DNA of 64,000 nt from the human T2T-CHM13v2.0 reference genome, Homo sapiens: the NCBI RefSeq assembly GCF_009914755.1, contig NC_060941.1, one strand, 5' to 3'. The translations under genes were made by a program, and so were the position numbers. Of the stretch, positions 1,032 to 46,700 are shown piece after piece; the stretch's first letter is position 1, and each line of letters opens with the position of its first letter. The notes beneath the pieces are model-generated. The model was not told where the DNA came from. It ran no database searches and worked only from the letters and a program-made list of their open reading frames with translations.

Positions 1032-1322
1032 GTAATTGGCCATCTCTGGTTGCTTTGGAATATGTTGATTGTTCATTCATATAAAAAATTGACTCCTACT
1101 TTATATTATATACAGAATCAATTCCAGAGGTTTAAGGACTTAAATATGAAAGCCAAACCTTTAAAACTTTTAGTAGAAAGTGTATATGAATAATTGTATC
1201 ATTGGGGTAGGAAAGCATTTCCTAAACCAGACACAAAAGGATCAAACTTAAAAAGACTGATAAATTTTACTACATTAAAATTAAGAACTGTTCCTCAAAA
1301 TATACCTTAAAGAAAGTGAAAA

Positions 1323-1603
1323 GACTGGGCACAGTGGCTCATACCTGTAATCCCAGCACTTTGGGAGGGTGAGGTGTGGAATTGCTTAAGTCCAGGAATT
1401 TGAGACCAGCCTGGGCAACATAGCAAGACCCCATCTCTACAAAGTAGCAGCACTCTACTATGCCAGGCTAATTTTTTAACTTTTGTAGAGATGGAGTCTC
1501 CCTGTGTTGCCCAGGTTGGTTTCAAGCTCCTGGACTCAAGCGATCCTTCCACCTGAGCTTCCCAAAGTGCTGGGATTACAGGCATGAGCCACCACGCCAA
1601 GCC
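1323..1603. mobile_element. Two opposed Alu left-monomer fragments (+ 1323-1443; - ~1455-1603)
   Basis: ctgggcacagtggctc...ccatctctacaaa followed by reverse-complement ttttgtagagatgg...gagccaccacgcc. Confidence 0.85.
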
Positions 1604-1610
1604 ACCAGTC

Positions 1611-1947
<337 letters not shown>

Positions 1948-2033
1948 TAATTTTTTCATTTTTAAACAATGCTATAATATACATTTTACCATAATATACC
2001 TGAGGTGTTCTTTAAGGATAAATTCCAAGTAGT

Positions 2034-2494
<461 letters not shown>

Positions 2495-2515
2495 CTATCA
2501 AAAAGAAAAAAAGAT

Positions 2516-2810
2516 GGCCGGGTGAGGTGGCTCACACCTGTAATCCTGGCACTTTAGGAGACCGAGGTGGGAGGATCACTTGAGCCCAGGAGTTCAAGAC
2601 CAGCCTAGGCAACATGGTGAAACTCTGTCTCTACAAAGAAATACAAAAATTAGCTGCATGTGGTGGCATGCACTTGTAGTCCCAGCTACCTAGAAAGCTG
2701 AGGTGGGAGAATCACCTGAGCTCAGGAAGTAGAGGCTGCAGTGAGCCATGATCATACCATTGTACCCCAGTTTAGGTGACAGAGCAAGACCCCGTCCCCC
2801 CCAAAAAAAA
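2516..2810 (+). mobile_element. Alu (AluJ-like)
   Basis: Diverged dimeric Alu. Confidence 0.85.
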
Positions 2811-3044
2811 GTCTCCATGCTGTCCCTTTTTAGTCAAACTCTCCCCAAATCCCTAACCTCTAGCATCCATTGATCTGTTGCCTGTACCTATAGTTGTGCT
2901 TTACAGAATGTCAGGTAAGTGAAACCATACAGTACGTAATCTTGCCAGGTGTTAAGATGGCACTCTAATGCCTTCCTCACCATCCTTGTTTCCACCTCTT
3001 TGCCTCGCACTTTGGATGTCAGCAACACAAACTGCTTGGAGTGA

Positions 3045-3365
<321 letters not shown>

Positions 3366-3475
3366 TCCTTGCTGTTTCTTGTCCCTGAGTGTTAGTCATG
3401 TGCCCTCTTTTGACCATGTCTCTATTCTCCTCTTCAACTCACTAACTCCAAGTCATCCTTTAATAATCAGCTCAG

Positions 3476-3795
3476 GGCTGGGTGCGGTGACGCACGCCTG
3501 TGATCCCAGCACTTTGGGAGGCCCAGGCGGGCAGATCACTTGAGCCCAGGAGTTTGAGACCAGCCTGGCCAACATGGTGAAACCCCAGCTCTACTAAAAA
3601 TACAAAAATTAGCCAGGCTTGGTGGCACACGCCTTTGGTCCCAGCTACTTGGGAGGCTGAGGCAGGAGAATCACTTGAACCCAGGAGACAGAAGTTGCAG
3701 TGAGCCGAGATCGCACCACTGGTGCGACAGAGCAAGACTCCATCTCAAAAAAAAAAAAAAAGAAGAAGAAAGAAAAAGAAAAAAGAAAAAAAAGA
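3476..3795 (+). mobile_element. Alu
   Basis: Full Alu with TSD aatcagctcagg. Confidence 0.9.
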
Positions 3796-4117
3796 ATCAG
3801 CTCAGGTGTTTCCTTCTTCATAAAGACTTTCATATTTTCTTCTTTCCTAAATTGTACCTTTCCTTGGTATTCACATAATACTTTCTGTCCTTCTCTCTAG
3901 TTGTATTGACCACTTTTTACCATAATTATTATTGTCTGTTTATACCAGCTAATTAGCGCCCCATCAAAATAAGAATTGTTTATCTTTTTATTACTAATGT
4001 ATAACCTATTGTAGATACATAGTAGAGTCCCAGTGTTGATTAATTCTTCTACGTATAATGATGATTACTAGCTTGTCTGAGGCTTTTCTAATTTCTTCCC
4101 ATCCTTTCCCTGTCTAG

Positions 4118-4838
4118 TATTTTCAGACAGAGTGGTATATACTCCAGAAAGCCTCTACAAGGAACTCTTCTCACAACATAAAGGACTCAGAGACTTAATA
4201 AATACAGAAATGCGCCCTTTCTCTCAAGGAATATTGATTTTTTCTCAAAGCTGGGCTGTGGATTTAGGTCTGCAAGAGAAGCAGGGAGTCATCTGTGATG
4301 CTCTTCTAATTTCCCAGAACAACACCCCTATTCTCTACACCATCTTCAGCAAGTGGGATGCGGGGTGCAAGGGCTATTCTATGATAGTTGCCTATTCTTT
4401 GAAGCAGAAGCTGGTGAACAAAGGCGGCTACACTGGGAGGTTATGCATCACCCCCTTGGTCTGTGTGCTGAATTCTGATAGAAAAGCACAGAGCGTTTAC
4501 AGTTCGTATTTACAAATTTACCCTGAATCCTATAACTTCATGACCCCCCAGCACATGGAAGCCCTGTTACAGTCCCTCGTGATAGTCTTGCTTGGGTTCA
4601 AATCCTTCTTAAGTGAAGAGCTGGGCTCTGAGGTTTTGAACCTACTGACAAATAAACAGTATGAGTTGCTTTCAAAGAACCTTCGCAAGACCAGAGAGTT
4701 GTTTGTTCATGGCTTACCTGGATCAGGGAAGACTATCTTGGCTCTTAGGATCATGGAGAAGATCAGGAATGTGTTTCACTGTGAACCGGCTAACATTCTC
4801 TACATCTGTGAAAACCAGCCCCTGAAGAAGTTGGTGAG
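4118..4838 (+). CDS. SLFN5: SLFN5 penultimate coding exon (SWAVDL motif, Walker A GLPGSGKT)
   Basis: Acceptor ccctgtctag|TA TTT TCA GAC AGA GTG; ORF 4132-4878 contains the Schlafen SWAVDL motif and GLPGSGKT (4711-4734); donor GTGAG|gtatgc. Confidence 0.96.
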
Positions 4839-5006
4839 GTATGCTGCTTGTCTGTGTTCACTTTATTTTCTTGAGTGACTGTGGCTGGTGTGGCTTTCAG
4901 TTTACTTGCTAAAATTCATATTGTATTTACCATGACCAGAGGGGTTTAAGAGTAGAATCTGCTTTCTTTGTTTCATTGGGGAAAAACCTGACTCTGTTTC
5001 TTACAG

Positions 5007-5823
5007 TTTCAGCAAGAAAAACATCTGCCAGCCAGTGACCCGGAAAACCTTCATGAAAAACAACTTTGAACACATCCAGCACATTATCATTGATGACGCT
5101 CAGAATTTCCGTACTGAAGATGGGGACTGGTATGGGAAAGCAAAGTTCATCACTCAGACAGCAAGGGATGGCCCAGGAGTTCTCTGGATCTTTCTGGACT
5201 ACTTTCAGACCTATCACTTGAGTTGCAGTGGCCTCCCCCCTCCCTCAGACCAGTATCCAAGAGAAGAGATCAACAGAGTGGTCCGCAATGCAGGTCCAAT
5301 AGCTAATTACCTACAACAAGTAATGCAGGAAGCCCGACAAAATCCTCCACCTAACCTCCCCCCTGGGTCCCTGGTGATGCTCTATGAACCTAAATGGGCT
5401 CAAGGTGTCCCAGGCAACTTAGAGATTATTGAAGACTTGAACTTGGAGGAGATACTGATCTATGTAGCGAATAAATGCCGTTTTCTCTTGCGGAATGGTT
5501 ATTCTCCGAAGGATATTGCTGTGCTTTTCACCAAAGCAAGTGAAGTGGAAAAATATAAAGACAGGCTTCTAACAGCAATGAGGAAGAGAAAACTGTCTCA
5601 GCTCCATGAGGAGTCTGATCTGTTACTACAGATCGGTGATGCGTCGGATGTTCTAACCGATCACATTGTGTTGGACAGTGTCTGTCGATTTTCAGGCCTG
5701 GAAAGAAATATCGTGTTTGGAATCAATCCAGGAGTAGCCCCACCGGCTGGGGCCTACAATCTTCTGCTCTGTTTGGCTTCTAGGGCAAAAAGACATCTGT
5801 ATATTCTGAAGGCTTCTGTGTGA
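5007..5823 (+). CDS. SLFN5: SLFN5 last coding exon (helicase-like C-terminus, ends ...HLYILKASV*)
   Basis: Acceptor tttcttacag|T TTC AGC AAG; contains IIIDDAQNF (Walker B-like), FSGLE and CLASRAK motifs; TGA at 5821-5823. Confidence 0.96.
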
Positions 5824-6076
5824 CAGGAAACCCAAGCCTAAGAAACAATTAAGTGGTTCTCATCTCTAATTAACTGTGAAACCATTTAATCCAAACATGT
5901 AAGCACACACTCACTTATTAAGTCACATACTTTTCTAGGTGCTGGGGATTGAGAACGAATCGATGTAAGATTCCTCCTTTAGGGCAGAGACAGACCACTG
6001 ACAAATACACAGATAGACAAGGAATTTCCCATGGTAAAAAGGGATATCAGTAATTAGAGGACCGTGAGACTCAGAG

Positions 6077-6125
<49 letters not shown>

Positions 6126-6139
6126 TGCACATGTGTGTA
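6077..6139. repeat. (TG)n(CG)n alternating purine-pyrimidine tract
   Basis: Directly visible. Confidence 0.95.
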
Positions 6140-7344
6140 GGTAGATGGAGGGGGTGATTATTTTGGGTGGTCAGGGAAGTGCTCAGTGAGGGAAGAACTT
6201 GTCATGAGAATCTCTGAGCGTGCCAGGCAGACTCGGATATTTTTATAAATTTTTAACATGGCCACTTGCAGAAGAGCTTGAATGGGACGTGCAGCGAGAA
6301 TGTGAAGGATGGAGCAGGTAGCTCATCTGGCCTTGTAGGTGCCGGGAACGGGCAAGACATGTTTTGAAATGTAAGATCACAGACTGTTTTTTGCAAGACC
6401 ACATTATATTACTTTATTATTTTCTGCTTTTTCTTTTAACGACATTAGTGTTTTTGATCACTATATTTTAAAATGCTTTTTGTGAGCCTTTTGGTTATGT
6501 GGAATCTGTTCCTTAGCTCTGATTTTTTATTCTTATGGAGCGTCTTAGGTTACTACATGAAGGTAAGACTGCCACAGTCCCCCAGGGAGGCACACTGTGT
6601 TTTACTGATTGATTTGAAGATGATAGAGAGCCTAGGGGGATGAGTCTATTGGACTCAAAGGTTACATTTTGTTTTTCCATTTAATTTAATAATCAACAAA
6701 ACGACAAAGTCAGTTTAATATCTTTCTTCTGCTGAGTCTTCAGGATGTTAGCTAGTCTTTCAAAAGCCATTGCTACAAAAGTGCAAATTTCTCATTTCCT
6801 GTGGGTCTCTAGAAACTCTCTCAATATTTAAAGCCAAACAAATCCATCTTTTCTGAGAGACAGAAACTAAAAAATTCAGAGTTAATTCACTATTAAAAAC
6901 AGCAAGGCCCTGCTATTTCCCAAGAATAAAGAAATTTAAAATTCTCATTGTAAGAAGTATGAACTTGAAGCTAGAATTGGTTTATTTCTGGCAGCTACTT
7001 ACAATATTAAGAACTTTACTTTTTAAATTTGAGACAATTTCACAGGAAAGCAAGAAATTAGTCTATTGTGAAATGTTTTTACAACTAACTTGGAATATAC
7101 TGCAAATCACTAGTAAGTAGAGACACATTTAAGATAAAATGATTAATAAAACAATTGGTAATTCTGAATAAGGATCTGAATAAATCCAGATCACAGACTG
7201 TTCCTTTACCAATATGTAAAAGAATGTGCAAAATTAGTAAAAATATACCCAAAAATTTACCAGCAACAGAGAAGCAAAGAATGGAGTTCAACCTTACACT
7301 ATAAACATCTAATAGATATGTATGAAAATTTAAAAACTAGAAAA

Positions 7345-7685
7345 GGTTGGGCATGGTGGCTCATGCTTGTGATCCCAGGACTTTAGGAGGCCAAGGTGGG
7401 AGGATTGTTTGAGCCCAGGAGTTCAAGACCAGCTTGAGCAATATAGTGAGACCCTGTCTCTACAAAAACAAACAAACAAACAAACAAATAAATAAATAAA
7501 TAAAATTAGCTGGGAATGGTGATGCACACCTGGAGTCCTAGCTACTCAGAAGGCTGAGGCAGGACGATCACTTGACCTCAGAAGTCTGAGGTTACAGTGA
7601 GCTATGATCATACCAGTGCACTCCAGTCTGGGTGACAGAACAAGACCCTGTCTCCAAAAATTAAATAAATAAAACAAAAAAAAAG
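7345..7685 (+). mobile_element. Alu (AluJ-like) in 3'UTR
   Basis: Dimeric Alu with expanded (AAAC)n(AAAT)n middle linker. Confidence 0.88.
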
Positions 7686-8369
7686 AATTTAAAAGTTTTA
7701 TATAAAGGCATAGCTACTATCTCATCTGCCCAGTGTAGTCATGAATAGATGTCACATAAAGAAAAGAAAACCAGAATTCTTGTTAATATGGCCAGTTTGA
7801 AGGGTGGTGGCGGAGGTATTGAGCAGGCAGCTCAGGGAAATGCCAGGGAGACCCTTGAGCACAGAAACTCCTGATTGTCCCCAGGGACTCTCCGTGGACA
7901 CAGGAGGGATTTTCCAGGATTTCACATGAATTCAATGAAGGGGGCTGTGTCTTATTCCTGGATGCTTTGCCTCCTTCATGGAATTCAGTGGATTTAATGG
8001 AAGTTCCTAGGCAACAATAAAGAGTAGAAACCAGGTTAACAGCGAGGGCCTCATCTCACACCAGATCATATCAGGCTACACAAAAGTAGATGGAAGACAC
8101 CACCCAGGCCTCCAGCTATACACTGGAGAAGAAGCCAAACTAGTCTACTTCATCTAAGAAAGTTGTCAAAGAGAGCCCTTCTATACTATCTTAAGGTAAA
8201 AAGAAAGACTCTACCCAGCTGCCCTGATTAAGCATTAGAAAGATAAGTGTTCTGATCATTAGGCGAAAGACAATGGGGAAAAATGTAGAAAAGAAATATG
8301 ACATGAGCCAGATGAAGAACCCATCCTGAAAGGATATATAACTCAGGGGACAAAAGACAACTCACCATA

Positions 8370-8665
8370 AGTTGGGCGCAGTGGATCACGCCTGTAATCT
8401 CAGCATTTTGGTAGGCCAAGGCAGGTGGATCACCTGAGGTCAGGAGTTCAAGTCCAGCCTGGCCAACGTGGTGAAATCCTGTCTCTACTAAAAATACAAA
8501 AATTAGCTGGGTGTGGTGGTGCATGCCTGTAATACCAGCTACTCAGAAGGCTGAGGCAAGAGAATTGCTTGAATCAAGGAGGCAGAGGTTACAGTGAGCC
8601 AAGATCAGGCCATTGTACTTCAGCCTGGGCGACAAAGTGAGACCCTGTCTCAAAAAACAAACAAA
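8370..8665 (+). mobile_element. Alu (AluS-like) in 3'UTR
   Basis: Dimeric Alu consensus. Confidence 0.88.
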
Positions 8666-10572
8666 GCCTCCCCATAGATGTCTCCTGCCATAGAAGAATT
8701 TAAGAAGTTCATAAATTCAATAAAACAAGAGTTGAAGGCCTGTCCCACTGTACCCAATTTCTCCCTCTCTGAACTGCAGCCTAGAAACTCTCTACAGGCA
8801 GTAAGCTGGGGCAGTCACAGAGGTGACCTCATCTGTTTCCCACATCCTGCATTAGGACAGTGATCAGGGATCAGTATCCTTCATTGACTGATTTCCAATA
8901 TCTCGAGACCTGTTGTTTCATATATTTTGCCTTATTTTGCAATTGTTTCATATATTTTGTCTTATTTTGCAATTGTTTCAGGAGGGAGGATAAATATGGT
9001 CCCTGTTCCTCTATCTTGACCAGAAGCATCTAAGAAGGCAGTGAAGCAACATGTGTACAGTTCTTAGGGAAACAAATTTTGACCTAAAAATATTAAACCT
9101 AGTCAAAATATTATTCTAGTACAAAGGCAGCACATGGGTATTTTTGAACATAAAAGAGTTCTAGAAATACAGGACCCATGAATCATTCTTGAAGAAAAGT
9201 TACTCAGTAAGGAAATCTAGCTAAGCAAGCAACATGTACAAATAAAAGATTATTATAATTGGACCAAAGTTAAGTTTAAATCCATTCACATGTATATAAT
9301 TAAGATATATAGGAATTATAATTACAGAAAAGAATGTTACAAACCTTCACAAAGTAAAAATATTTTTATATCAGATAGATTCTTCTGTTTCAATCCATAA
9401 AACCAGGGTTTGGATCATTTTAAAAAAACAAACAAAAATAATTTATTGGAATCATTAGGGAGGACCTGATAGAATAAAATGACAAGCTGACCAAATAGGC
9501 CTTAGAAGGGAGAGGTGCCTGGGCAGTTACAAGGACCTAGGTAGCAGGGGTGACTTGGCCACAGTCATTTTCTTTACTTGATTTAAGGAGGTTAAATTAC
9601 AGTGAGAGAGTTGCACTTATTTAGTTTGCATACCGTACTCAACTCTTAGCTAGCATAGGGCAGGTTCCTTAGTTGAAAAATTTCCACAAAACATGATGTA
9701 AAGTGGAAAGATCAGTTCCCCCAAAGAATATCAGTTACCAAAGTAGGATGAAAGGATGTTGGGTAGATCAAAACAACAAATGTCCATTACAGCAATTAAC
9801 AAAAGTTAGGGAGTGGGGAAGTCTGAGTGCTAATATGGATTTCAAAACAACTTTAAAAATGGCTTCAAACATTTTATGCTTTTTGTAATTTAGTCATTTT
9901 AATATTAGATAAATCTTCCTGTAACTGAAAGTTCTTGAGTTAAAGAAAAATATTCGGTAGTTCAGCTCTTCCTTCAATTTTATTAGTTGCTTTTTCTTTT
10001 GTTCAAGTGAAATAAACATAAAAATAATTTTAAAATATTATGTATCATATCCTTCGATTTAACATAATTCTATCTAGCTGTTCTTATATTTTCTCTGATA
10101 TATTTTTAAAAGCTTTCTGGAATATTATTAACCTTGAATATTTCTAGTTGATGAGTTTATGAGTGATTTATTGCTTCCTTTTCTCTTTCAGTATTGCTAG
10201 AATTAATTTTATTGACTTTGCCCCTTTGCATAAAGACCTTGAAGGTCACATGCTGAAATCGCCCTCTACTAAAACAAACTCATAGAAATAATGGGGAAGA
10301 TATTTCAAAACATTGCCATATGCATAGCCATCCTCACAACCAAGAAAAGCGCCTCTCCATGAACTAAAACCTATGAGTCATTGGTACAGGTAGGGAAAAT
10401 CTAGGTAAACCACGGTAATACACTGAGGCTGGCACCACCACAGGCCAGGACAACCGTTGTCACAAAGCCAGGACAGAATCTCCCAGCCAGAAAGTGTTGC
10501 CCTGAGGCTGAAGCCAAATTCATTTTGCCCCCAGTTGGCCAGACCAAAGCCTAGAACTAAAAAACCCATACC

Positions 10573-10808
10573 TCAGGGTTTGTCAGCATTGGCACTGCTG
10601 GCTTTTTGGGCTGGACAACCATTTATTGTGAGAGGCTTCTCTATGCACTGTAGGATGTTTAGCAGCATCCTTGGCCCTACTCCCTAGACGCCAGTAGCAA
10701 ATCCACCACCCTCCCTCCCCTACCCCAGGGTTGGTTGTCAGTTGTGACAACCAAAAATGTCTCCAGACATCGCCAAATGTCCCTTGGGGGGTAAAATCAC
10801 CACCACCA
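10573..10808 (+). mobile_element. MER20-like hAT DNA transposon relic
   Basis: tgcactgtaggatgtttagcagcatcc...gtgacaaccaaaaatgtctccagacatcgccaaatgtccc matches the MER20 consensus. Confidence 0.8.
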
Positions 10809-11389
10809 TACCTCTTTTGACTAAAAGAGTTTCCAGAATAGTGGCAGAATATATAGGTCAAGCATAACACATTACAATCAAGATTCAGAACATCAAAGAT
10901 TCTTTTTTAATCCTAAAAGAAAAAGTTTGGAAAATCTACAAAAAGAAGTGTGAATTTGACAATAACTATTTCACTAGCAAGGGTAGACGTAAGCAGAATA
11001 CAGGTAGCATATTCAAACTGCTGTGGAAAAACAACATCAAACCTAGACTTCTCTCCCCAAACTATCATTCAGAGTCGAGGGCAAAATAAATAGATTTTCT
11101 GACTTGGAACAAGTAGGAATAATGTACTTATAGTATTCATCTTCATACAGGGATGGACTATAAGTGATTTTTAAAAAACTTCCTACTTGTTCCAAGTCAG
11201 AAAAACTATTCATATAGGGATGGGCTATTAGCAAGAGTATATGAATAACGTACTATAACAAGAAAAAATGAATTGAGAAGAAAGTAGTGGTTTTAAGAAG
11301 GAAAGGAGAACAAATAAATTAGTGAAACATAAGGTTAAGTCTATACATATTATTTTCTAATTGCCTATTATGTCAGACTACATGTAGTT

Positions 11390-13340
<1,951 letters not shown>

Positions 13341-13561
13341 TGTGTGTGTTTTTACTTGTTCATGTAGTGATTTTATAAATTACTCTTTTAATTTTCTATC
13401 AATGAATATCCTGGGATAAACCCCTCATGATCATAATGAATAATGATGTGTGGAGAGTGGGGAGGGTTTACATATGAAAAATGTAGAAAATACAAAAAGT
13501 GTCTATATATACAAAAATGTAAGTGTTAACATTTTTATATTTGCTTCAAGCTTTTTTTTTA

Positions 13562-13615
13562 AATAAAAGAAATGCAATATTGCAATTAAATTTGTGTTCT
13601 TCTTTCTTCTGTTTC
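13562..13615 (+). terminator. Candidate distal polyadenylation signal
   Basis: U-rich upstream run, AATAAA 13562-13567, downstream tttgtgttcttctttcttctgttt. Confidence 0.6.
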
Positions 13616-14307: not shown

Positions 14308-21577
<7,270 letters not shown>

Positions 21578-27672: not shown

Positions 27673-27778
27673 GAAAAGAAACAAAACTGTGCTTGTTTCT
27701 CTGCATCTCACCATTGCTGGCTAACTTTTGGCTATATCTTTACAGTTTTCATCCATTTTATAAAATACTGGGGGAGAA

Positions 27779-28593
<815 letters not shown>

Positions 28594-28652
28594 CCATTCT
28601 ATGGAAATCTTTATTCAACAAGAAAGAATGAGGGAGTTAATGAATACGGGAA
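28594..28652 (+). pseudogene. Schlafen relic, start of penultimate-exon homology
   Basis: caacaagaaagaatgagggagttaatgaatacggga (QQERMRELMNTG) versus SLFN5 caacataaaggactcagagacttaataaatacagaa ([12 protein letters not shown]). Confidence 0.65.
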
Positions 28653-28669
28653 TATAAGAGACAAATAAC

Positions 28670-29036
28670 TTACGGACTGAATTGTGTTCCCCCAAAATTC
28701 GCATGTTGAAGGTTTTAGGGAACTAATTAAGGTTAAATGAGGTCATAAGAGTGGGTCCCTAATCTGATAAAACTGGGGCTTTTATAAGAATAGGAAGAGA
28801 CACCAGAGATCAGAGATTCCGCACCCCCAACCCCAAAGTGCACAGAGAAAAGGCCATGTGAGGAAACAGTGAGAAGGTGGCCATCTACTAACCAGAAAGA
28901 CAGCCCTCACCAGAAACCAAATTTGTCATCATCTTGATCATGGACTTCTTGCCTCCCTAACTGTGAGAAAATAAATGTCTATTGTTTAAGCCAGCCAGCC
29001 TATGGTATTCGACGACAGCCCAAGTAACCTACTACA
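28670..29036 (+). mobile_element. MLT1A/B-like MaLR solo LTR
   Basis: ggactgaattgtgttcccccaaaattc...taaatgtctattgtttaagcca; 5-bp TSD ataac (28665-28669, 29037-29041). Confidence 0.8.
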
Positions 29037-29041
29037 ATAAC

Positions 29042-32490
<3,449 letters not shown>

Positions 32491-33283
32491 ATATGCTTTG
32501 TTTCTCAAAAAGCATTTTTTTTGTTGTTGTTTGTTTATTTTTTTTTAGCAGTGGGGCTGTGGACCTGGGTCCAGAGTATGGAATGATGCAGGTTGGAGGG
32601 GCCATCCCACGCACGCTAGTAAAGTTAGTGAACATGAATGAAACATGGAAGTGTATGTGTCTTGATTATGGTCTTCACTCTGGGATCTGAGAGAAACACA
32701 CAGCTCCTCAGTGGTTCAGACTTGCAAATAATTTATCTTGAGTCTTATCAGCTTACAGCCACCTAAAACACGAAGCTATGCTAATGTTCCCTGTGATAGC
32801 CTTGTTTGGGTTTAGAAAATTCTTATGTGGCCAGTTGGGATCTGAGGTATAAATCTACTCTTAAATAAACAGCAGGAATTGCCTTTAAAGACTTGCTCCA
32901 AGACAAATGAAGAATTTGTGGCTTACCTGATGTAGTTGTGACTATGAAGATCATGGAAAAGATTAAGAATGTGCTTTACTGTGGCAACATTCTTGGCATT
33001 TGTGGAAATTTGCTTTTGAGTAAATTTATTAGGTAAGCAATTTGACTGCGATGATAGCAAATAAATATTATTACTTATTTGCTATCCATTTCATTTTCCT
33101 AAATAACTTAGAGAGGGATTCTTTCTGGTTTCATTGGTAAAAGTAATGTTACATATTCTCAATACATTGCAGTTTAGTATTTAACTTTGCTTCTTTGTTA
33201 ACTGGGAAAGCATGACTTGGTTTCTAAAAATTTTAACAGAATGAAAAACATCTGCCAGGCAGTGATACAAAAATTCTTCATGA
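32491..33283 (+). pseudogene. Schlafen pseudogene relic: penultimate exon, intron (33033-33239) and start of last exon
   Basis: SGAVDLG, KLVN, IYLESY, LFGFRKFL, QLGSEV, NLLLNKQQEL, GLP, MKIMEKIKNV align collinearly to SLFN5 ~4210-4838; donor ATTAG|gtaagc, acceptor ttttaacag|A, then MKNICQAVIQKFFM versus KKNICQPVTRKTFM; stops and frameshifts present. Confidence 0.9.
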
Positions 33284-34880
33284 ATCATCTCAATAGATGC
33301 AGAAAAAGCATTTGATAAAAGTCAGCACCCTTTCATGATACAAATCTTCAACAAACTTCAGAAGAACTACCTTAAAATAATAAAGGCCCTATACAACAAA
33401 CCCACAGCCAGCATCATACTGAATAGGAAAAAGTTGCAAGCATTCCCTCTAAGAACTGGAGCAAGACAAGGATGTTCATTCTCACCACTCCTATTCAACA
33501 TAGTGCTGAACTCATAGGGCAATCAGGCAAGAGAAAGAAATAAAAGGTATCCAACTTGGAAAAGAGGAAGTCAAATTATCTCTGTTCACTGGCAATATAA
33601 CCTTATATCTAGAAATTGCTAAAGACTTCTCCAAAAAGCTCTAGATCTGATAAATGAATTCAGTAAAGTTTCACAATACGAAATCAGTGTACAAAAGTCA
33701 TTAGCATTTCTCTGCATTAATAATGATCAAGCAGAGAACCAAATCAAGAAGGCAATCCCATTTAACATAGCTACAAAAAATGAAGTAAAATAAAATAAAA
33801 TGCCCAGGAATATATTTAACCAAGGAGATAAAAGATCTTTACAAGGAAAACTACAAAACACTGATGAAAGCAGTTGTAGATGACACAAACAAATGGAAAA
33901 GCATCTTATTCTCATGGATCAGAAGAATTAATGTCATTAACATGACCATACTGCACAAAGCAATCTACAGATTCAATGCAATATCTATCAAAATACCAAT
34001 GTTGTTTTTCGCAGAGTTGGAAAAAAACAATCTTAAAATTCACATGGAACCAAAAAAGAGCCCAAATGGCTAAAGCAATCCTAAGCAAAAAGAACAAACT
34101 CGGAAGCAACACATTACCTGATCTCAAACTATACTACAAGGCTATGGTAAGCAAAACACCATGGTACTGGTACAAAAATAGACATATAGATTAATGGAAC
34201 AGAGAACTCAGAAATAAAGCCACACACATACAGCCAACTGATCTTTGGCAAAGTTGACAAAAACATACACTGGGGAAAGGATCCCCTTTTCAATAAATGA
34301 TGGTGGGGAAATTGGATTGCCACATCCAGAAGAATGCAACTGGACTCCTATCTCTCACGATATACAAGATGGATTAAAGACTCAATTATAAGACGTGAAA
34401 CTATAAAAATTCTAGAAGAAAACCTAGGTAAAACTCTTGTGGACATTGATCTAGGCAACGAATTTATGACTAAGGCCTCAAAATCACAAGCAACAAAAAC
34501 AAAAATAGACAAATGGGACTTAAACTAAAAAGCTTCTGCACAGAAAAAAAAATCAATAGAGTGAACAGACCTGCAGAATGGGAGAAAATATTTGCAAACT
34601 ATCCATTCAACCATTCAACAGGGGACTGGCATCCAGAATTTGTGAAAAACTCAAACTTCAACAACAATAACAGCAACAACAACAAAAGTGGGCAAAGGAT
34701 TTGAATAGACATTTTTTTAAAGAAGACATACAAATGACCAACAAGCATATAAAAAAATTTTCAGCATCACTAATTGTCAGATAAATGCAAATGAAAACCA
34801 CAATGAGATATCATCTTACATGAGTCCGAATGGTTATTACTAAAAAGTCAAAAAATAACATATGTTGGCAAAGATGCAGG
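33284..34880 (+). mobile_element. L1 ORF2 internal fragment (L1PB/L1MA-like), truncated at both ends
   Basis: Begins at [12 protein letters not shown] codons and ends before the 3'UTR; no poly-A or TSD. Confidence 0.85.
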
Positions 34881-34884
34881 TCAC

Positions 34885-35462
34885 ATTTCTGACCCCTCCA
34901 AGAGCAGCTGAAACAACTGTTGCACAGAACCTTCAACTCTTTCCAGCCTCCAGGGTGAGACACAACTGTATATTCTAAAGGGTGATAACTGATTGGAAGG
35001 CTTTCCATCTAAGAAGTTTCATACACAGGCTCCTACCCCAGCCTGTGTATGAAACTAGTAGATCTAAGTGCTGGGAGTCCAGAGGCAGACATGACAGGAA
35101 AGTTCTGGAATATGTGAACAAACATGAGTACACGGAATGGCAGAGCATGAAAAGGGATAATAGGGTTGTAAAGCAAGGCAGTACAACAGAAAGGCTCTCG
35201 GTATCTGTGAATGTGTGTCTGTCTGGTTTGTCTGTCTGGTAAGAGGAGTTGGTACATTAGACTGGGAAGTCAGGGAGGCCTCAGTGAGCAAAAAGCTGCC
35301 ATGTGAAACCCTAGGGCAGGTTCTTCTCAGTCTTGACATTCACACTGTGATTGAGTGTGGATATGAAGGATGGGACGGGCGGGGCGGGCATTGTGTCAGG
35401 TCTTGGAGAGGCCAAGAGAGGCAGAGGCAGGGGCAGGGTAGAAAAACAGAATCAGAGCAAAC
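34885..35462 (+). pseudogene. Schlafen relic: C-terminal codons, stop (TGA 34990-34992) and 3'UTR
   Basis: PPRAAETTVAQNLQLFPASRVR-(frameshift)-QLYILKGDN*; downstream ctaagtgctgggag and tcagggaggcctcagtgag match SLFN5 UTR ctaggtgctgggga (5935) and tcagggaagtgctcagtgag (6171). Confidence 0.85.
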
Positions 35463-36039
35463 ATTGTCAGTTGCAAATTATCACTTTTGCAACACTGAAT
35501 TTTCTTGTTTTTCTCCCCTTTCCCTTTCCTTGGCTGGTTAGTTAATATATTTTTATAGCGCCCTTTTCTTTCCTTTGCATGATTGTGAAATCTTGCTGTT
35601 TACCTCTACTTTTAACACCATCCTTGTAAAGTCCCACAGTCCTCACAGTGGTCAGGCTGCATCAGCATAATGGAAAAAACAATATTTCTCCTTGATTTAA
35701 CTTTGGAGAGAGTCTGACAGAAGGAGTGAGTGCTCTCAAATGCCTTCAGTTCTGCTGAGTCCTTAGGAGTCCAGTTAGGCCTTCCTGGGCCATCACTGCT
35801 TGAAGCCCAATTATGTGATTTGTCACATCTTCCTCTAGACTATACTCATGCCTAAAGAATCTCCATCCTTGAAACTCCCATTTCCTGCGTTAATTTCCAG
35901 GAAATGGACTCCCTTCAAGGATCCTCAGAAAGAATCTAAAAAAGGGTCCTTGAAGGCAGTTAATTTCTGGTTAAATAAAACATCTGCCATCTTTTCAGAA
36001 TATAGACTTTTCCTTCTTACCATAAAAAACGTGAGCTTG

Positions 36040-36522
36040 TTCTGGGCAGTGATTTCTTTGCTAGGTCCCAAAAGTACAGGCAATGAAAACAATAATAGAC
36101 AAATGGTATTGCATCAAACAAAAAAAACTACTGCACAGCAAAGGAAATAATTAACAGAGTGAAGATACAGTCCACGGATTGGGAGAACATATTTGCAAAT
36201 TATACAGCATAAAATGGGCTAATATCCAAAATATACAAGGTATTCAAATGACTCAATCGAAAGAAACAAATAACTTGATTAAAAACTGGGCAAACAATGT
36301 GAATACACATTTTTCAAAATACACACAAATGGCCAATAGATATTTGGAAAAATGCTCAATATTACTGATCAGGGAAATGTAAATAAAACCACAATAATAT
36401 ATCACCTCATGCTGTTAGATTGACTATTACAAAAAAGATGAATGAAAACAAGTGTTGGAGAGGATGAGGAAAAAAGAAAACTCTTGTACACTGTTGGAGG
36501 AAATGTAAATTAGTACAGTCAT
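36040..36522 (+). mobile_element. L1MA-like fragment
   Basis: Decayed ORF2 3' region (aatagacaaatgg..., cacaaatggccaatag...). Confidence 0.75.
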
Positions 36523-37572
36523 TGATATGGTTTGGCTGTGTCCCCATCCAAATCTGAGCTTGAATTGTATCTCCCGGAATTCCCACATGTTATGGGAGGG
36601 ACCCAGGGAGAGGTAGTTTAATGATGGAGGCCGTCTTTTCCCATGCTATTCTCATGATAGTGAATAAGTCTCATGAGATCTGATGGGATTATCAGGGGTT
36701 TCCTCATTTGCTTCTAGCTCATTTTCTCTTGCCACCACCATGTAAGAAGTGCCTTCACTTCCCGCCATGATTCTGAGATTTCCCCAGCCATGTGGAACTG
36801 TCCCAATAAACCTCCTTTTCTTCCCAGTCTTGGGTATGTCTTTATCAGCAGCATGAAAACAGACTAATATAGTAAATTGTTACCAGTAGAGGGGTATTGC
36901 TGAAAAGATACCAGAAAATGTGAAAGTGATTTTGGAGCTGGGTAACAGGCAGAAGTTGGAACAGTTTGGAAGCCCCAGAGGAAGACAGGAAAATGTGGGA
37001 AAGTTTGGAACTTCCTAGAGACTTGTTGAATGGCTTTGACCAAAATGCTGATAGTGATATGGACAATAAGGTCTAGGCTGAGGTGGTCTCAGATGGAGAT
37101 GAGGAGCTTGTTGGGAACTGGAGTAAAGGTGGATCTTGTTATGTTTTAGCAAAGAGGCTGGTGGCATTTTGCCCCTGCCCTAGAAATTTGTAAAACTTTG
37201 AACTTGAGAAAGATGATTTAGGGTATCTGGTGGAAGAAATTTCTAAGCAGCAAAGCATTCAAGAGGTGACTTGTTAAAGGCATTCAATTTCATAACAGAA
37301 GCAGAGCATAAAAGTTTGGAAAGTTTGCAACCTGACTATGCAATAGAAAAGAAAACCCCATTTTCTGGGGAGAAATTCAAGCCAGCTGCAGAAATTTGCA
37401 TAAGCAGTGAGGAGCCTACTGTTAATCCCCAAGACCATGGGGAAAATGTCTTTAGGCCATGTCAGAGACCTTCACAGCAGCCCCTCCCATCACAGGTCTG
37501 GAGGCCCAGGAGGAAAAAGTAGTTTCCTGGGCTGGACAGAGGATCCCTGTGCTGTGTGCAGCCTAGGGACTT
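36523..37572 (+). mobile_element. THE1(B)-like LTR (36523-36871) plus partial internal region
   Basis: tgatatggtttggctgtgtcccc...gaaaacagactaata then internal gtaaattgttaccagtagagggg. Confidence 0.9.
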
Positions 37573-40784
<3,212 letters not shown>

Positions 40785-43700
40785 GAGTATGGACAAGATG
40801 GATGAATAGGAACAGCTCTAGTCTGCAGCTCCCAGTGAGATCAGAGCAGAAGTCAGGTGATTTCTGCATTTCCAACTGAGGTACATGGCTCATCTCACTG
40901 GGACTGGTTGGACAGTGGGTGCAGCCCATGGAGGGTAAGCCAAAGCAGGATGGGGCGTTGCCTCTTCTGGGAAGCACAAGGGGTCAGGGAACTCCCACCC
41001 CTAGCCAAGGGAAGCCATGAGGGACTGGGCCATGAGGAATGGTACATTCTGGCCCAGATACTATGCTATTCCCATGGTCTTTGCAACCTTCAGACCAAGA
41101 AATTCCTTCGGGTGCCTACACCACCATGGCCCTGGATTTCAAGCACAAAACCAGGCAGCCATTTGGGCAGACATTGAGCTAGCTGCAGGAGTTTTTTTCA
41201 TACCCCAGTGGCACCTGGAACCCAGCAAGATAGAACCATTCACTTCCCTGGAAAGGGGGCTGAAGCCAGGGAGCCAAGGGGTCTAGCTCAGCAGATCCCA
41301 CCCCCCATGGAGCCCAGCAAGCTAAGATCCACTGCCTTGAAATTCTCTCTGCCAGCACAGCAGTCTAAAGTTGACCTGGGATGTGTGAGCTTGGTGGGGG
41401 GAGGGGGGTCCACCACTACTCAGGTTTAAGTAGGTGGTTTTCCCCTCACAGTGTAAACAAAGCCTCTGGGAAATTGAACTTGGTGGAGCCCACTGCAGCT
41501 CAGCAAAGCTACCGTAGCTAGACTGCCTCTCTAGATTCCTCATCTCTGGGCAGGGCATCTCTGAAAGAAAGGCAGCAGCCCCAGTCAGGGCCTTATAGAT
41601 AAAACTCCCTTCTCCCTGGGACAGAGCACATGGGGGAAAGGGGCAGCTGTGGCCACAGCTTCAGTGGACTTAAACTTTCCTGTCTGCCGACTCTGAAGAG
41701 AGCAGCAGATCTCCCAGCACAGCACTCGAGCTCTGCTAAAAGACACATTGCCTCCTCAAGTGGGTCCCTGACCCCCGTGCCTCCTGACTGGGAGACACCT
41801 CCTAGCAGGGGTCAACAGACACCTCATACAGGAGAGCTCTGGCTGGCGTCTGGTGGGTGCCTTTCTGGGATGAAGCTTCCAGAGGAAGGAGCAGGGAGCA
41901 ACCTTTGCTGTTCTGCAGCCTCCACTAGTGATGCCCAGGCAAACAGGGTCTGGAGTGGACCTCCAGGAAACTCCACCAGATCTGCAGCAGAGGGGCCTGA
42001 CTGTTAGAAGGAAAACTAACAAACAGAAAAGAGTAGCATCAACATCAACAAAAAGGATGTCCACACAAAAACTCCATCCAAAGGCAACCAACATCAAAGA
42101 CCAAAGGTAGTTAAGTCCACAACAATGAGGAAAAACCAGCGCAAAAAGGCTGAAAATTCCAAAAACCAGAATGCCTCTTCTCCTCCAAAGGATTAGAGCT
42201 CCTCACCAGCAAGGGAACAAAACTGGACAGAGAATGAGTTTGATGAATTGACAGAAGTAGGCTTCAGAAGGTGGGTAATAACAAACTCCTCCGAGCTAAA
42301 GGAGCATTTTCTAACCCAATGCAAGGAAGCTAAGAACCTTGAAAAAAGGTTAGAGGAATTGCTAACTAGAATAACCAGTTTAAAGAAGAACACAAATGAC
42401 CTGATGGAGCTGAAAAACACAGCATGAGAACTTCATGAAGCATACACAAGTATCAAAAGCCAAATCAGTCAAATGGAAGAAAGGATATGAGAGATTGAAG
42501 ATCAACTTAATGAAATAAAGTGTGAAGACAAGAATAGAGAAAAAATAATGAAAAGAAATGAACAAAGCCTCCAAGAAATATTGGACTATGTGAAAAGACC
42601 AAACCTACATTTGATTTGTGTACCTGAATGTGACGGGGAGAATGGAACCAAGTTGGAAAACACTCTTCAGGATATTATCCAGGAGAATTTCCCCAACCTA
42701 GCAAGGCAGGCCAACATTCAAATTCAGGAAATACAGAGAACACCACAAAGATATTCCTCGAGAAGAGCAACCCCAGACACATAATTTTCAGATTCACCAA
42801 GGTTGAAATGAGGGGAAAATGTTAAGGGCAGCCAGAGAGAAAGGTTGGGTTACCCATAAAGGGAAGCCCATCAGACTAACAGCGAATCTGTCTGCAGAAA
42901 CCCTACAAGCCAGAAGGGAATGGGGGCCAATATTCAACATTCTTAAAGAAAAGAATTTTCAACCCAGAATTTTATATCCAGCCAAACTAAGCTTCATAAG
43001 TGAAGGAGAAATAAAATCCTTTACAGACAAGCAAATGCTGAGAGATTTTGTCACCACCAGGCCTGCCTTACAAGAACTCCTGAAGGAAGCACTAAATATA
43101 AAAGGAAAAACCAGTACCAGCCACTGCAAAAACATATCAAATTGTAAAGACCATCAATACTATGAAGAAACTACATCAACTAATGGGCAAAATAACCAGC
43201 TAGCATTAATAATGGCAAGATCAAATTCACACATAACAATATTAATCTTAAATGTATATGGGCTAAATGCCTCATTTAAAAGACACAGACTGGCAAATTG
43301 GATAAAGAATCAAGACCCATCAGTGTGCTGTATTCAGGAGACAAATCTCACATGCAAAGACAAACATAGGCTCAAAATAAAGGGATGGAGGAATATTTAC
43401 CAAGCAAATGGAAAGCAGAAAAAAAAGCAGTGGTTGCAATCCTAGTCTCTAATAAAATAGACTTTAAACTGACAAAGATCAAAAAAGACAAAGAAGGGCA
43501 TTATATAGTGGTAAAGGGATCAATGCAACACGAAGAGCTAACTCTCCTAAATATATATGCACCCAATACAGGAGCACGCAGATTCATAAAGCAAGTTCTT
43601 AGAGATGTACAAAGAGACTTAGACTCCCACACAATAATAGTTGGAGTCTTTTACACCCCACTGTCAATATTAGATAGATCAATGAGACAGAAAATTAACA

Positions 43701-46700
43701 AAGAAATTCAGGACTTGAACTCAGCTCTGGACCAAGTGAACCTAATAGACATCCACAGAACTCTCCACCCCAAATCAACAGAATATGCATTCTTCTCAGC
43801 ACTACATCACACTTATTCTAAAATTGACCACATAATTGGAAGTAAAACACTCCTCAGCAAATGGAAAAGAATGGAAATCATAGCAAACAGTCTCTCAGAC
43901 CACAATGCAATCAAATTAGAACTCAGGATTAAGAAACTTACTCTAAACCACACAACTACATGGAAACTGAACAACCTGCTTCTGAATGACTACTGGGTAA
44001 ACAACAAAATTAATGCAGAAATAAATAAGTTATTTGAAACCAATGAGAACAAAGACACAACCTACCAGAATCTGTGGGACACAGCTAAAGCAGTGTTTAG
44101 AGGAAAATTTATAGCACTAAATGCCCACAGGAGAAAGTAGGAAAGATCTAAAATCAACACCCTAACATCAAAATTAAAAGAACTAGAGAAGCATCTGGCC
44201 CCACCAAAGTGTTAAAGGCGCACCGGAAAGAGAACATAAACTCCGCGAGCTAGGCACCAAAACTATGTCCCTTACAAGCAGTAGGAGGAGAATTTGGGCC
44301 CATTCATGTGCATGCCCCCTTCTCACTCTCAGATTTAAAACGAATAAAGAGCAGAAAACAAATAAAGGCAGATTTAGGGAAATTCTCAGATAATCCTGAT
44401 AACTATATATAGGTCCTGCAAGGATTGGGGAGTCCTTTGATCTAACATGGAGAGCTATCATGTTGCTTCTTGATCAGACATTAAGTCCTACTGGAAAAGA
44501 AGCAGCTTTAGCAGCAGCTCAGCAATTTGGGGATCTGTGGTACCTTAGCCAGGTAAACGATCGAATGGCCCAGGAGGAGAGGGAAAAATTCCCCACAGGG
44601 CAAGAGGCAGTCCCCACTGTAGACCCTCATTGGGATACTGACTCAGATCATGGAGATTGGAGCCACAGGCATTTGCTAACTTGCATTTTAGAAGGGTTGA
44701 GGAAGACTAGGAAAAAGCCTATGAACTATTTAATGCTATCCACAATTACACAGGGAAGAGAGGAAAACCCCTCAGCTTTTCTAGAAAGGCTAAGGGAGTC
44801 CCTAAGAAAGCACACCTCCCCAACTCCAGATTCTGTAGAAGGCCAACTTATTTTAAAGGATAAATTTATCACCCAATCATGGCTGACTTTAGGAGAAAAC
44901 TCCAAAAGTCTGCTTTAGGCCCAGAACAAAATTTGGAGACGTTATTAAACCTGGCAACCTCGGTGTTCTATAACAGGGACCAAGAGGAACAGGCCAAAAG
45001 GGAAAAGTGAGATAAGAGAAAGGCTGCAGCCTTAGTCATGGCCCTCAGACAGGCAGACCTTGGTGGCTCAGAGGGAACCAAGAGAGGAGCAGGCCAATTG
45101 CCTAGAAGGGCTTGTTATCAGTGCGGTTTACAATGACACTTTAAGAAAGATTGTCCAACCAAAAACAAACCGCCCCCTCGCCCATGTCCAATATGCCAAG
45201 GCAATCACTGGAAGGCACACTGCCCCAAAGGATGAAGGCCCTCTAGGCCAGAAGCACCCAACCAGATGATTCAGCAATAGGACTGAGGGTGACTGGGGCA
45301 AGTGCCAGCTCATGCCATCACCCTCACAGAGCCCTGGGTAAGTTTGACCATTGAAGGCCAGGAAGTGGACTTCCTCCTGGACACTGGTGCGGACTTCTCA
45401 GTTTTAATCTCCTGCCCTGGACGACTGTCCTCAAAGTCCGTTACTATCCGAGGAATCTTAGGACAGCCTATAACCAGGTATTTCTCTTGCCTTCTCAGCT
45501 GCAACTGGGAGACTTTGCTCTTTTCACGTGCATTTCTTGTTGTGCCTGAAAGTCCCACACCTTTATTAGGGAGGGACACATTAGCCAAAGCTGGGGCCAT
45601 TATCCATCCCAGTCCTAAACACCACCAAATCAGTCCCATAATCCCCAATTTACCAGCCACACAGGCCTCAAATCTCACATGCATAAACTTCAGCATGGCT
45701 CTCAATAAGAACACCTCCCAATGTCAGTCCTGGATATCAATAACCTCAGGTTTCACCTGTCTAACTTCAGGCATTTTTTTCAACTGGGATAACACAGCCT
45801 ATCAATGCCTAAACGGCATTCGGAAAGAACTATGCTTTCTCTCCTTTCTAGCACCTCCTATGTCCATATATACTGAACAAGAGTTACAAAGTCTCCTTAT
45901 ACCCCAATCTCGCCACACATGAGCCCTTATTGTAGGAGCCGGAATACTGGGTGGGCTTGGGACTGAAATTGGAGGCATAACCTCCTCCACCCAATTCTAT
46001 TATAAATTATTACAAAAATTAAAGGATGACATGGAACTAGTTGCCAACTCCCTAGTGACCCTACAAAGCCAGCTTAATTCTCTAGCTGCAGTAGTCCTTC
46101 AAAACCAGAGAGCCCTAGACTTACTAACAGCTGAAAGGGGAGAAACCTGCCTCTTCTTAGGAGAAAAATGTTGCTATTTCATTAACCAGTCAGGAATCAT
46201 TACTAAAAAGTCAAAGAACTAAGAAAATGAATAGAAAGTAGAAAAAAAGGAGCTTGAACACTCAGGGCCCTGGAATATGTTTAACCAATGGATACCTTGG
46301 CTCCTCCGCTTTCTAGGCCCTGCGACAGCCATCCTACTATTATTCGCTTTTGGGCCTTGCATTTTTAACCTCCTTGTCAAATTTGTTTCCTCCAGAATCA
46401 AGGCCATCAAGCTACCAATGGTCTTATAAATGGAACCTCAAATGAGTTCAACTCACGGCTTCTACCGAGGACCTGTATCGACCCACTGGTCCCTCACTAG
46501 CCTAAAAAGTTCCCCTCTGGAGGACACCACAACTGCAGGGCCCCTTCTTGGCCCTTAATCAGCAGGAAGTAGCCAGAACCACCACCGCCCAGTTCCCAAC
46601 AGCAGTTGGGGCGTCCTGTCTAGAGGGGGAGCTGAGAGGAGGTGCCCACTGGGCTTCCTGGGTTGAGTAGGGGCTCAGAAAGCTGTGAAACTCACTCATT

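What the first reader, a model, noticed from the sequence alone, without database searches (positions are those of the whole stretch)
28594..35462. Fossil extra long-form Schlafen gene hidden in transposon debris downstream of SLFN5
Seen: removing the L1MB/MLT1/Alu block (28653-32490) and the L1 at 33284-34880 leaves pieces collinear with SLFN5 in this window. In order: QQERMRELMNTG | SGAVDLG..KLVN..IYLESY..LFGFRKFL..QLGSEV..NLLLNKQQEL..GLP..MKIMEKIKNVLYC, a GT-AG intron at the same position and phase (33033-33239, 207 nt versus 168 nt), MKNICQAV..FFM | ASRVR.QLYILKGDN* (TGA 34990), then 3'UTR homology. The retained intron shows it is a duplicated, not processed, gene. Established: the human cluster has SLFN5/11/12/12L/13/14 and evolves by birth and death. 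Inference: this is a lost same-strand paralog; I cannot check whether it is annotated.
Basis: partly seen in the sequence, partly recalled or inferred. Interest (0 to 1): 0.88.

Follow-up and report, generated by a model that had tools for sequence, protein, structure and literature searches.

The report
Decayed SLFN5-like gene fragment beside SLFN5
About 15 kb downstream of human SLFN5 lies a very old, transposon-riddled and partly rearranged copy of only the back half of an SLFN5-type gene, a dead relic that records one more ancient duplication in the Schlafen cluster.

Summary
Once the repeat blocks are removed, window 28592-28652, 32491-33283 and 34881-36055 align in order with SLFN5 exon 4, intron 4, both ends of exon 5 and the first ~1.2 kb of its 3'UTR (nhmmer E 1e-38 to 4e-12; 0 of 200 shuffles reach the observed scores). 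The retained, homologous intron rules out a retrocopy.

The relic belongs to the SLFN5 lineage. It is sister to SLFN5 in the tree, grouping with SLFN11/13 is rejected (AU p=0.004), and its UTR aligns only with SLFN5's.

- There is no N-terminal half anywhere in the genome.
- About 670 nt of helicase core are missing, and the L1 fragment lies at that spot.
- A 558-nt inverted copy of the relic's own 3' end (28034-28591) abuts the first piece and cuts an Alu.

Substitutions on the relic's branch are even across codon positions, so there is no sign it ever evolved as a coding gene.

It is absent from the RefSeq table supplied and from the 2025 Schlafen survey. My verdict is a new but ordinary duplicated pseudogene fragment of roughly stem-placental age. 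"Lost long-form paralog" is possible but unproven.

The parts
27774..28033 (+). Alu whose 3' end and A-tail are cut off exactly where the inverted copy begins (rearrangement breakpoint)
   Evidence: Sequence read. Multi-copy Alu hits.
28034..28591 (-). Inverted duplicate of the relic's own 3' end: the last ~80 nt of coding sequence (reads ...ASRVRTQLYILKGD) plus ~480 nt of 3'UTR
   Evidence: 79% identity over 575 columns with 34909-35462, and only these two copies in the genome. K2P 0.194; translation; nhmmer to the SLFN5 3' end, E 3.3e-10.
28592..28652 (+). Relic of exon 4, first piece (reads ..QQERMRELMNTGI*), equivalent to SLFN5 4161-4210
   Evidence: (0/200 shuffles).
28653..32490 (+). Inserted repeat block: an LTR-like repeat at 28655-29040, an old L1 body running to 32490, and two Alus (about 30622-30920 and 31640-31930)
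   Evidence: 5106 first-look candidates genome-wide, best other copies 71-77%. L1-type hits. Alu hits; the flanks join seamlessly in the alignment.
32491..33032 (+). Relic of exon 4, main piece: end of the linker/GTPase-like domain (SGAVDL) and the start of the helicase with a decayed Walker A site (GKT codons deleted)
   Evidence: Frameshifts and stops.
33033..33239 (+). Relic of intron 4. The donor GT is conserved. The acceptor aligned to SLFN5's is mutated.
33240..33283 (+). Relic of the first 44 nt of exon 5 (KNICQAVIQKFFM)
   Evidence: 35/44 identical to SLFN5; 0/200.
33284..34880 (+). L1 ORF2 fragment truncated at both ends. It sits where about 670 nt of helicase core (SLFN5 5057-5726) are missing.
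   Evidence: RVT_1, E 3.3e-10; 29140 first-look candidates, best other copies 73-79%..
34881..34992 (+). Relic of the end of exon 5 with one frameshift and the stop TGA at 34990-34992
   Evidence: (0/200).
34993..36055 (+). Relic of the 3'UTR, homologous to SLFN5's 3'UTR only. It may run on to about 36366.
   Evidence: z 16; SLFN11/13 z about 0; E 1e-21.

Best explanation
This is a non-processed (DNA-duplicated) pseudogene fragment of the SLFN5 lineage.

**What is shown:**
- A genomic segment was copied onto the same strand about 15 kb downstream of SLFN5. It carried at least the distal nine-tenths of SLFN5-type exon 4, intron 4, exon 5 and at least 1.2 kb of 3'UTR.
- The copy has since drifted neutrally.
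- It acquired an LTR-like element and an L1 in exon 4.
- It acquired another L1 in exon 5, and about 670 nt of helicase core are gone at that spot.
- It carries at least 8 frameshifting indels (two more at the splice junction) and stop codons.

**What is inferred:**
- The duplication happened around the base of placental mammals.
- The ~670-nt loss in exon 5 came from a deletion that followed the L1 insertion.
- In the primate era, after an Alu had landed nearby, a 558-nt stretch of the relic's own 3' end was copied in inverted orientation.
- That copy was joined to exon 4 at 28591/28592. The event erased whatever lay upstream.

The relic has no coding function today. It is a record of birth-and-death evolution in the Schlafen cluster.
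For: **Collinear homology:** it covers exon, intron, exon and UTR.

**Placement in the SLFN5 lineage:**
- In the tree on 755 columns the relic is sister to SLFN5. SH-aLRT/UFBoot is 87.6/80 with SLFN12 and SLFN12L included, and 98/100 without them.
- Placement with SLFN11/13 is rejected (AU p=0.004).
- The UTR aligns with SLFN5's (z 16.3, 0/200) but not with SLFN11's (96/200) or SLFN13's (190/200).

**Neutral decay:**
- Changes on the relic branch are 56/183, 59/191 and 51/143 at codon positions 1, 2 and 3 (p=0.56).
- Changes on the SLFN5 branch are 21/148, 14/146 and 32/124.
- At least 8 frameshifting indels (two more at the splice junction), and stops.

**Inverted copy:**
- The arms are 79% identical with K2P 0.194, and occur only twice in the genome.
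- Where the arms differ, the plus arm matches SLFN5 at 32 sites, the minus arm at 29, and neither at 28.
- The boundary truncates an Alu.

**Old inserted repeats:** best other copies are 71-79% identical.
Against: - No other species could be examined, so the age and the order of events rest on divergence alone, and alignment at this depth is uncertain. Noncoding distance to SLFN5 is about 0.42 from the optimised pairwise alignment (68% identity; my Jukes-Cantor conversion). MAFFT gives 0.59-0.79.
- The SLFN5-sister position is not decisive against the SLFN12 clade (AU 0.225) or a basal position (0.178). Parsimony sites split 17/10/8 of 306.
- Gene conversion between the arms could make the inverted copy look younger than it is.
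- Repeat family names (L1MB, MLT1) were not verified.
Confidence: 0.85

Rival explanations
1. This is the reader's view: the relic is what remains of a complete, once-functional seventh long-form Schlafen gene. Its 5' half was later deleted.
For: - The relic's present 5' limit (28592) coincides exactly with a later rearrangement junction. So it very probably extended further upstream before that event.
- The cluster evolves by whole-gene birth and death (PMC12492265, section 6 read).
Against: - No N-terminal or exon 3 homology was found in the window (tblastn/blastn best E 0.12; nhmmer 0 hits at E<=10; no collinear hits among 155).
- None was found in the genome either: 6 matches, all known genes.
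- There is no codon-position bias on its branch, so any functional period was short.
Confidence: 0.3
2. The relic descends not from SLFN5 itself but from the long-form parent of the SLFN12 clade, or from a lineage basal to both SLFN5 and SLFN12.
For: - AU tests do not reject these placements (p 0.225 and 0.178).
- 10 of 35 polarised sites favour relic+SLFN12.
- The survey paper reports that clade 1 arose about 100 Ma from a helicase-bearing parent, and that hedgehog 'SLFN12' carries a SLFN5-like C-terminal extension (PMC12492265, passages and section 6).
Against: - The ML tree and 17 of 35 polarised sites favour SLFN5.
- The 3'UTR and intron align best with SLFN5.
- SLFN12 keeps its own weak remnant of exon 4/5 sequence downstream of its stop. 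So the relic is not SLFN12's detached back half.
Confidence: 0.17
3. It is a processed retrocopy of SLFN5 mRNA.
For: All of the homologous sequence lies within the SLFN5 transcript (exons plus the long 3'UTR).
Against: A 207-nt intron homologous to SLFN5 intron 4 is retained, with the donor at the identical position.
Confidence: 0.01
4. It is chance similarity, or an artefact of stitching short peptides across repeats.
For: tblastn alone is weak (E 8.8e-6; E 1.4e-3).
Against: - nhmmer E-values go down to 1e-38.
- 0/200 shuffles reach the observed score for four separate collinear pieces.
- The pieces join seamlessly across the excised block.
Confidence: 0.01

Closest known systems
Human SLFN5 (window 906-13590; exon 4 at 4118-4838, exon 5 from 5007)
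   Same: Same strand, same exon-intron-exon-UTR order and same donor site. Identity is 62% on the main exon 4 piece and 80% on the exon 5 start. The UTR is homologous. SLFN5 is the sister in the tree.
   Different: Only the back half is present. The reading frame is destroyed, the Walker A codons are deleted, about 670 nt of helicase core are missing, four transposon insertions are present, and an inverted copy of its own 3' end lies next to it.
SLFN11/SLFN13-like broken piece at G000:C17:36470239-36470898 (between SLFN12L and SLFN14, outside the window)
   Same: It is another Schlafen exon 4 remnant with stops, and no N-terminal exon was detected for it.
   Different: It is much younger: 82-87% identical to SLFN11/13. 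It belongs to the other clade and lies on the opposite strand.
SLFN5 pseudogenes of cow and dog (Table S1A/B of PMC12492265, supplement read)
   Same: They are decayed members of clade 2.
   Different: Those are the species' single SLFN5 orthologue gone dead. The human relic is an extra copy beside an intact SLFN5, and that table lists human clade 2 as 1 with no pseudogene.

Membership tests
Schlafen group III (long-form) gene | N-terminal Schlafen core (AlbA_2-type) domain exon | tested here: not met
   No hit in the window. The whole-genome search with the SLFN5 N-terminal 338 aa finds only the six known genes.
Schlafen group III (long-form) gene | Linker / GTPase-like domain with the SWAVDL motif (Pfam PF21026 in SLFN5) | tested here: met
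   Nucleotide homology over the region. The motif reads SGAVDL. The 67-aa open piece alone does not reach Pfam (0 families).
Schlafen group III (long-form) gene | C-terminal helicase domain with Walker A/B | tested here: inconclusive
   The start (GLP.., with the GKT codons deleted) and the last ~35 codons are present. About 670 nt of core are absent.
Schlafen group III (long-form) gene | Conserved intron between the penultimate and last coding exons | tested here: met
   The donor is at the identical position and the intron sequence is homologous.
SLFN5 clade (clade 2) | Groups with SLFN5 rather than with SLFN11/13/14 | tested here: met
   (AU p=0.004 against SLFN11/13). UTR homology is specific to SLFN5. 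Separation from the SLFN12 clade is only moderate (AU 0.225).
Processed pseudogene | Absence of introns | tested here: not met
   The intron relic is retained at 33033-33239.
Once-functional (unitary-type) lost gene | Excess of third-position over first/second-position change on its own branch | tested here: not met
   30.6%, 30.9% and 35.7%, p=0.56. A short functional period cannot be excluded.

The most novel reading that the evidence does not exclude
The relic is the last human trace of a seventh ancestral long-form Schlafen gene born in stem placentals. It would be a complete SLFN5-type duplicate that is sister or parent to the helicase-bearing progenitor of the SLFN12 clade. Intact or longer orthologues may survive at the SLFN5-SLFN11 interval in some mammals (compare the hedgehog 'SLFN12' with a SLFN5-like C-terminal extension).
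Probability: 0.12. Interest if true: 0.55.

Novelty: new member of a known kind. Interest (0 to 1): 0.3.

Why it matters
- **One more ancient duplication.** The relic adds an SLFN5-lineage duplication to the history of an innate-immunity gene cluster known for birth-and-death evolution. The event is of about the same age as the poorly resolved origin of the SLFN12 clade from a helicase-bearing parent.
- **A neutral comparison for SLFN5.** The relic drifted neutrally, so it gives a yardstick for the 3' half of SLFN5, including the helicase region reported to be under positive selection (PMC12492265, passages).
- **A dated rearrangement.** The inverted 558-nt duplicate with a breakpoint inside an Alu is a worked example of a later, small fold-back type rearrangement.
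- **No present-day function.** None is indicated.

Tried and rejected
**1. Search for the relic's 5' half.**
- tblastn and blastn with SLFN5 exon 2 found nothing.
- nhmmer with exon 2, exon 3 and the start of exon 4 against 13591-64000 gave 0 hits at E<=10.
- nhmmer with 22 kb of SLFN5 upstream sequence against 6900-28700 gave 155 hits. The 13 low-copy hits are not collinear; the other 142, on multiply-hit query stretches, were filtered out and not examined.
- The whole-genome protein search found only the six genes.

**2. Tandem whole-gene duplication model.** No collinear homology was found between the SLFN5 upstream region and the interval 6900-28700.

**3. Extension of the inverted arm past the Alu.** None was found (blastn; nhmmer). 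One nhmmer hit at 27689-27784 (E 8e-4) overlaps the Alu edge and was not reproduced, so it was dropped as noise.

**4. 'The relic is the detached back half of SLFN12's parent'.** Rejected, because SLFN12 keeps its own weak exon 4/5 remnant that overlaps the relic's span.

**5. UTR homology to SLFN11/13.** None. Plain blastn also missed the SLFN5 UTR homology. Only the global alignment with shuffles and nhmmer showed it.

**6. Literature.**
- 'SLFN5P' is found in 0 papers.
- Schlafen + SLFN5 + 'partial duplication' is found in 0 papers.
- Bustos et al. 2009 is not held, so it could not be checked for a mention of this relic.
- The supplementary figures of PMC12492265 are a PDF and were not seen.

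Full report
**What is there**

The window is T2T chr17:36208001-36272000. SLFN5's last three coding exons lie at 906-1031, 4118-4838 and 5007-5823.

A tblastn of the SLFN5 C-terminal 553 aa against the whole window gave 8 HSPs at E<=10:
- Two were SLFN5 itself.
- One was at 32647-33030 (E 8.8e-6).
- One was a weak hit at 33244-33282.
- One was a weak minus-strand hit at 28572-28516 to the very C-terminus.
- The other three were weak hits elsewhere in the window (E 3.0-8.0).

blastn of the SLFN5 gene against the rest of the window gave 214 HSPs at E<=1e-2, and only 4 of them fell on low-copy query sequence:
- SLFN5 4573-4814 with 32788-33008 (69.5%, E 3.6e-16).
- SLFN5 4964-5057 with 33191-33284 (75%, E 1.2e-9).
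- SLFN5 5759-5812 with 28571-28518 on the minus strand.
- One unrelated hit near 49.1 kb.

nhmmer was far more sensitive:
- SLFN5 4357-4735 with 32585-32944, E 3.4e-25.
- SLFN5 4508-5060 with 32720-33287, E 1.1e-38.
- SLFN5 5715-6217 with 34885-35314, E 3.9e-12.
- SLFN5 6013-6983 with 35126-36055, E 1e-21.

**Piece-by-piece check**

I built a codon alignment of the penultimate and last coding exons of SLFN5, 11, 13 and 14, and of the penultimate coding exon only for SLFN12 and SLFN12L. All sequences were taken from the same assembly. The relic fragments were then added to it.

| Relic piece | Alignment columns |
|---|---|
| 28592-28652 | 39-99 |
| 32491-33032 | 99-736 |
| 33240-33283 | 743-786 |
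| 34881-34993 | 1477-1586 |

- The pieces are strictly collinear. The two flanks of the excised block 28653-32490 abut each other.
- The add-fragments step dropped 4 of the 113 nt of the last piece.
- Local alignments beat 200 of 200 dinucleotide shuffles for four pieces. Only the poorly preserved 32491-32621 is weak (8/200).

**Intron and UTR**

- The 207-nt interval 33033-33239 is homologous to SLFN5 intron 4 (z 6.4, 0/500; z 8.5, 0/200).
- The donor is at exactly the SLFN5 position. The acceptor aligned with SLFN5's has decayed (ACAG to AAAA).
- The sequence after the stop aligns with SLFN5's 3'UTR (z 16.3, 0/200). It does not align with SLFN11's (96/200 shuffles as good) or SLFN13's (190/200). 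SLFN5's own UTR does not align with SLFN11's either.
Global alignment carries it to about 36366 (downstream part 0/100 shuffles).

A retained intron rules out a retrocopy.

**Which Schlafen**

Identity of the relic pieces to each gene:

| Relic piece | SLFN5 | SLFN11 | SLFN13 | SLFN14 |
|---|---|---|---|---|
| Main exon 4 piece | 61.8% | 57.5% | 57.4% | 45.7% |
| Exon 5 start | 35/44 | 26/44 | 25/44 | 26/44 |

- The ML tree used the 755 columns where the relic has a base and 7 rows. SLFNL1 and the broken SLFN11/13-like piece at 36.47 Mb were left out.
- It puts the relic sister to SLFN5 with support 87.6/80, or 98/100 when the two short SLFN12 rows are removed.
- AU tests reject placement with SLFN11/13 (p=0.004). 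They do not reject placement with the SLFN12 clade (0.225) or basal to SLFN5+SLFN12 (0.178).
- Polarised sites split 17 (relic+SLFN5), 10 (relic+SLFN12) and 8 (SLFN5+SLFN12) among 306 comparable columns.
- SLFN5 has the shortest branch in that clade, so long-branch attraction would pull the relic away from SLFN5, not toward it.

**State of decay**

- Relative to SLFN5, the retained ~860 nt carry 10 length differences that are not multiples of three. Two of these lie at the splice junction. There is one stop in the alignment frame.
- A single-frame read of 36240647-36241027 has 6 stops.
- The GKT codons of Walker A are deleted.
- SLFN5 5057-5726, most of the helicase core, has no counterpart. 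An L1 ORF2 fragment (RVT_1, E 3.3e-10) occupies 33284-34880.
- That L1 is cut at both ends and has no 3' tail. I infer from this that a deletion followed its insertion.

**Was it ever a working gene?**

I counted relic-branch changes at sites where SLFN5, SLFN11 and SLFN13 agree, and SLFN5-branch changes at sites where the relic, SLFN11 and SLFN13 agree:

| Branch | Position 1 | Position 2 | Position 3 |
|---|---|---|---|
| Relic | 56/183 | 59/191 | 51/143 |
| SLFN5 | 21/148 | 14/146 | 32/124 |

- The relic branch shows no bias (chi-square p=0.56). The SLFN5 branch shows the usual signature of constraint.
- The relic therefore drifted neutrally for essentially its whole life.
- No N-terminal core exon, exon 3 or upstream intron homology was found in the window.
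- The genome-wide search with the SLFN5 N-terminal 338 aa found exactly the six known genes.

- 28034-28591 is an inverted copy of 34909-35462. Identity is 79% over 575 columns with 38 gap positions, K2P is 0.194, and these are the only two copies in the genome.
- It carries a better preserved C-terminus (..ASRVRTQLYILKGD).
- Where the arms differ, the plus arm matches SLFN5 at 32 sites, the minus arm at 29, and neither at 28. So the arms diverged symmetrically.
- Its inner end abuts the first relic piece at 28591/28592.
- Its outer end cuts a plus-strand Alu (27774-28033) that lacks its last bases and A-tail.
- It does not continue beyond the Alu.
- The relic's 5' limit coincides with this junction. 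So the relic most likely extended further upstream before the rearrangement, and its original extent cannot be read from this genome.

**Relative ages (inference)**

Noncoding distance between the relic and SLFN5:
- About 0.42, my Jukes-Cantor conversion of the 68% identity in the optimised pairwise alignment.
- 0.59-0.79 from MAFFT.

Other distances:
- The coding tree gives the relic a branch of 0.40, against 0.13 for SLFN5.
- The inserted LTR-like repeat and the L1 are 71-79% identical to their best other copies. That corresponds to roughly 0.14 or more per copy.
- The arms differ by 0.19, or about 0.10 each.

The order is therefore duplication, then old repeat insertions, then inverted duplication. 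Using recalled human-lineage neutral rates (about 0.2 per site per 100 Myr), this puts:
- The duplication at roughly 100-160 Ma.
- The inverted copy in the primate era, which agrees with the cut Alu.

The survey paper dates SLFN5's birth to about 160 Ma and the SLFN12 clade to about 100 Ma (PMC12492265, section 6 read).

**Is it known?**

- The RefSeq table supplied lists nothing between SLFN5 and 84 kb.
- Table S1A of PMC12492265 (supplement read) lists human clade 2 as a single gene with no pseudogene. No species in that table has two clade-2 copies.
- Full-text searches for 'SLFN5P' and for Schlafen + SLFN5 + 'partial duplication' found 0 papers.
- Bustos et al. 2009 is not held, and GENCODE could not be consulted. 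Prior description therefore cannot be excluded.

**Verdict**

This is a real, very old, non-processed pseudogene fragment of the SLFN5 lineage that was later rearranged. That makes it a new member of a known kind. The claim of a lost complete long-form paralog is possible but unproven, and the neutral substitution pattern argues against any long functional life.

Noticed in passing
Outside the window: G000:C17:36470239-36470898 (minus strand), between SLFN12L and SLFN14: This is a second broken Schlafen exon 4 remnant with TAG stops. It is 82-87% identical to SLFN11/SLFN13 over 0.9-1.6 kb, so it is far younger than the relic studied here. No last exon or N-terminal exon was detected for it.
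   Followed up: partly
L018 (G000:C17:36355001-36363000), minus strand, about 3841-4265 downstream of the SLFN12 stop: Short collinear matches to SLFN5 exon 4/5 sequence lie beyond the point where SLFN12's coding homology ends (24-38 nt at 84-92%, E 3.6e-4 to 2.4e-6). They suggest that SLFN12 still carries a decayed stub of its lost helicase region.
   Followed up: no
window 14311-17228 versus 40786-44198: These are two long, collinear, highly similar stretches (nhmmer E down to 3.5e-188). They coincide with intervals masked as repeats and are presumably two copies of one younger L1 family. A segmental duplication was not excluded.
   Followed up: no
window 36523-36599 (minus strand) versus L010:6403-6479, just upstream of the SLFN5 start codon exon: A 77-nt match at 87% identity (E 2e-21). 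It is probably a shared interspersed repeat.
   Followed up: no
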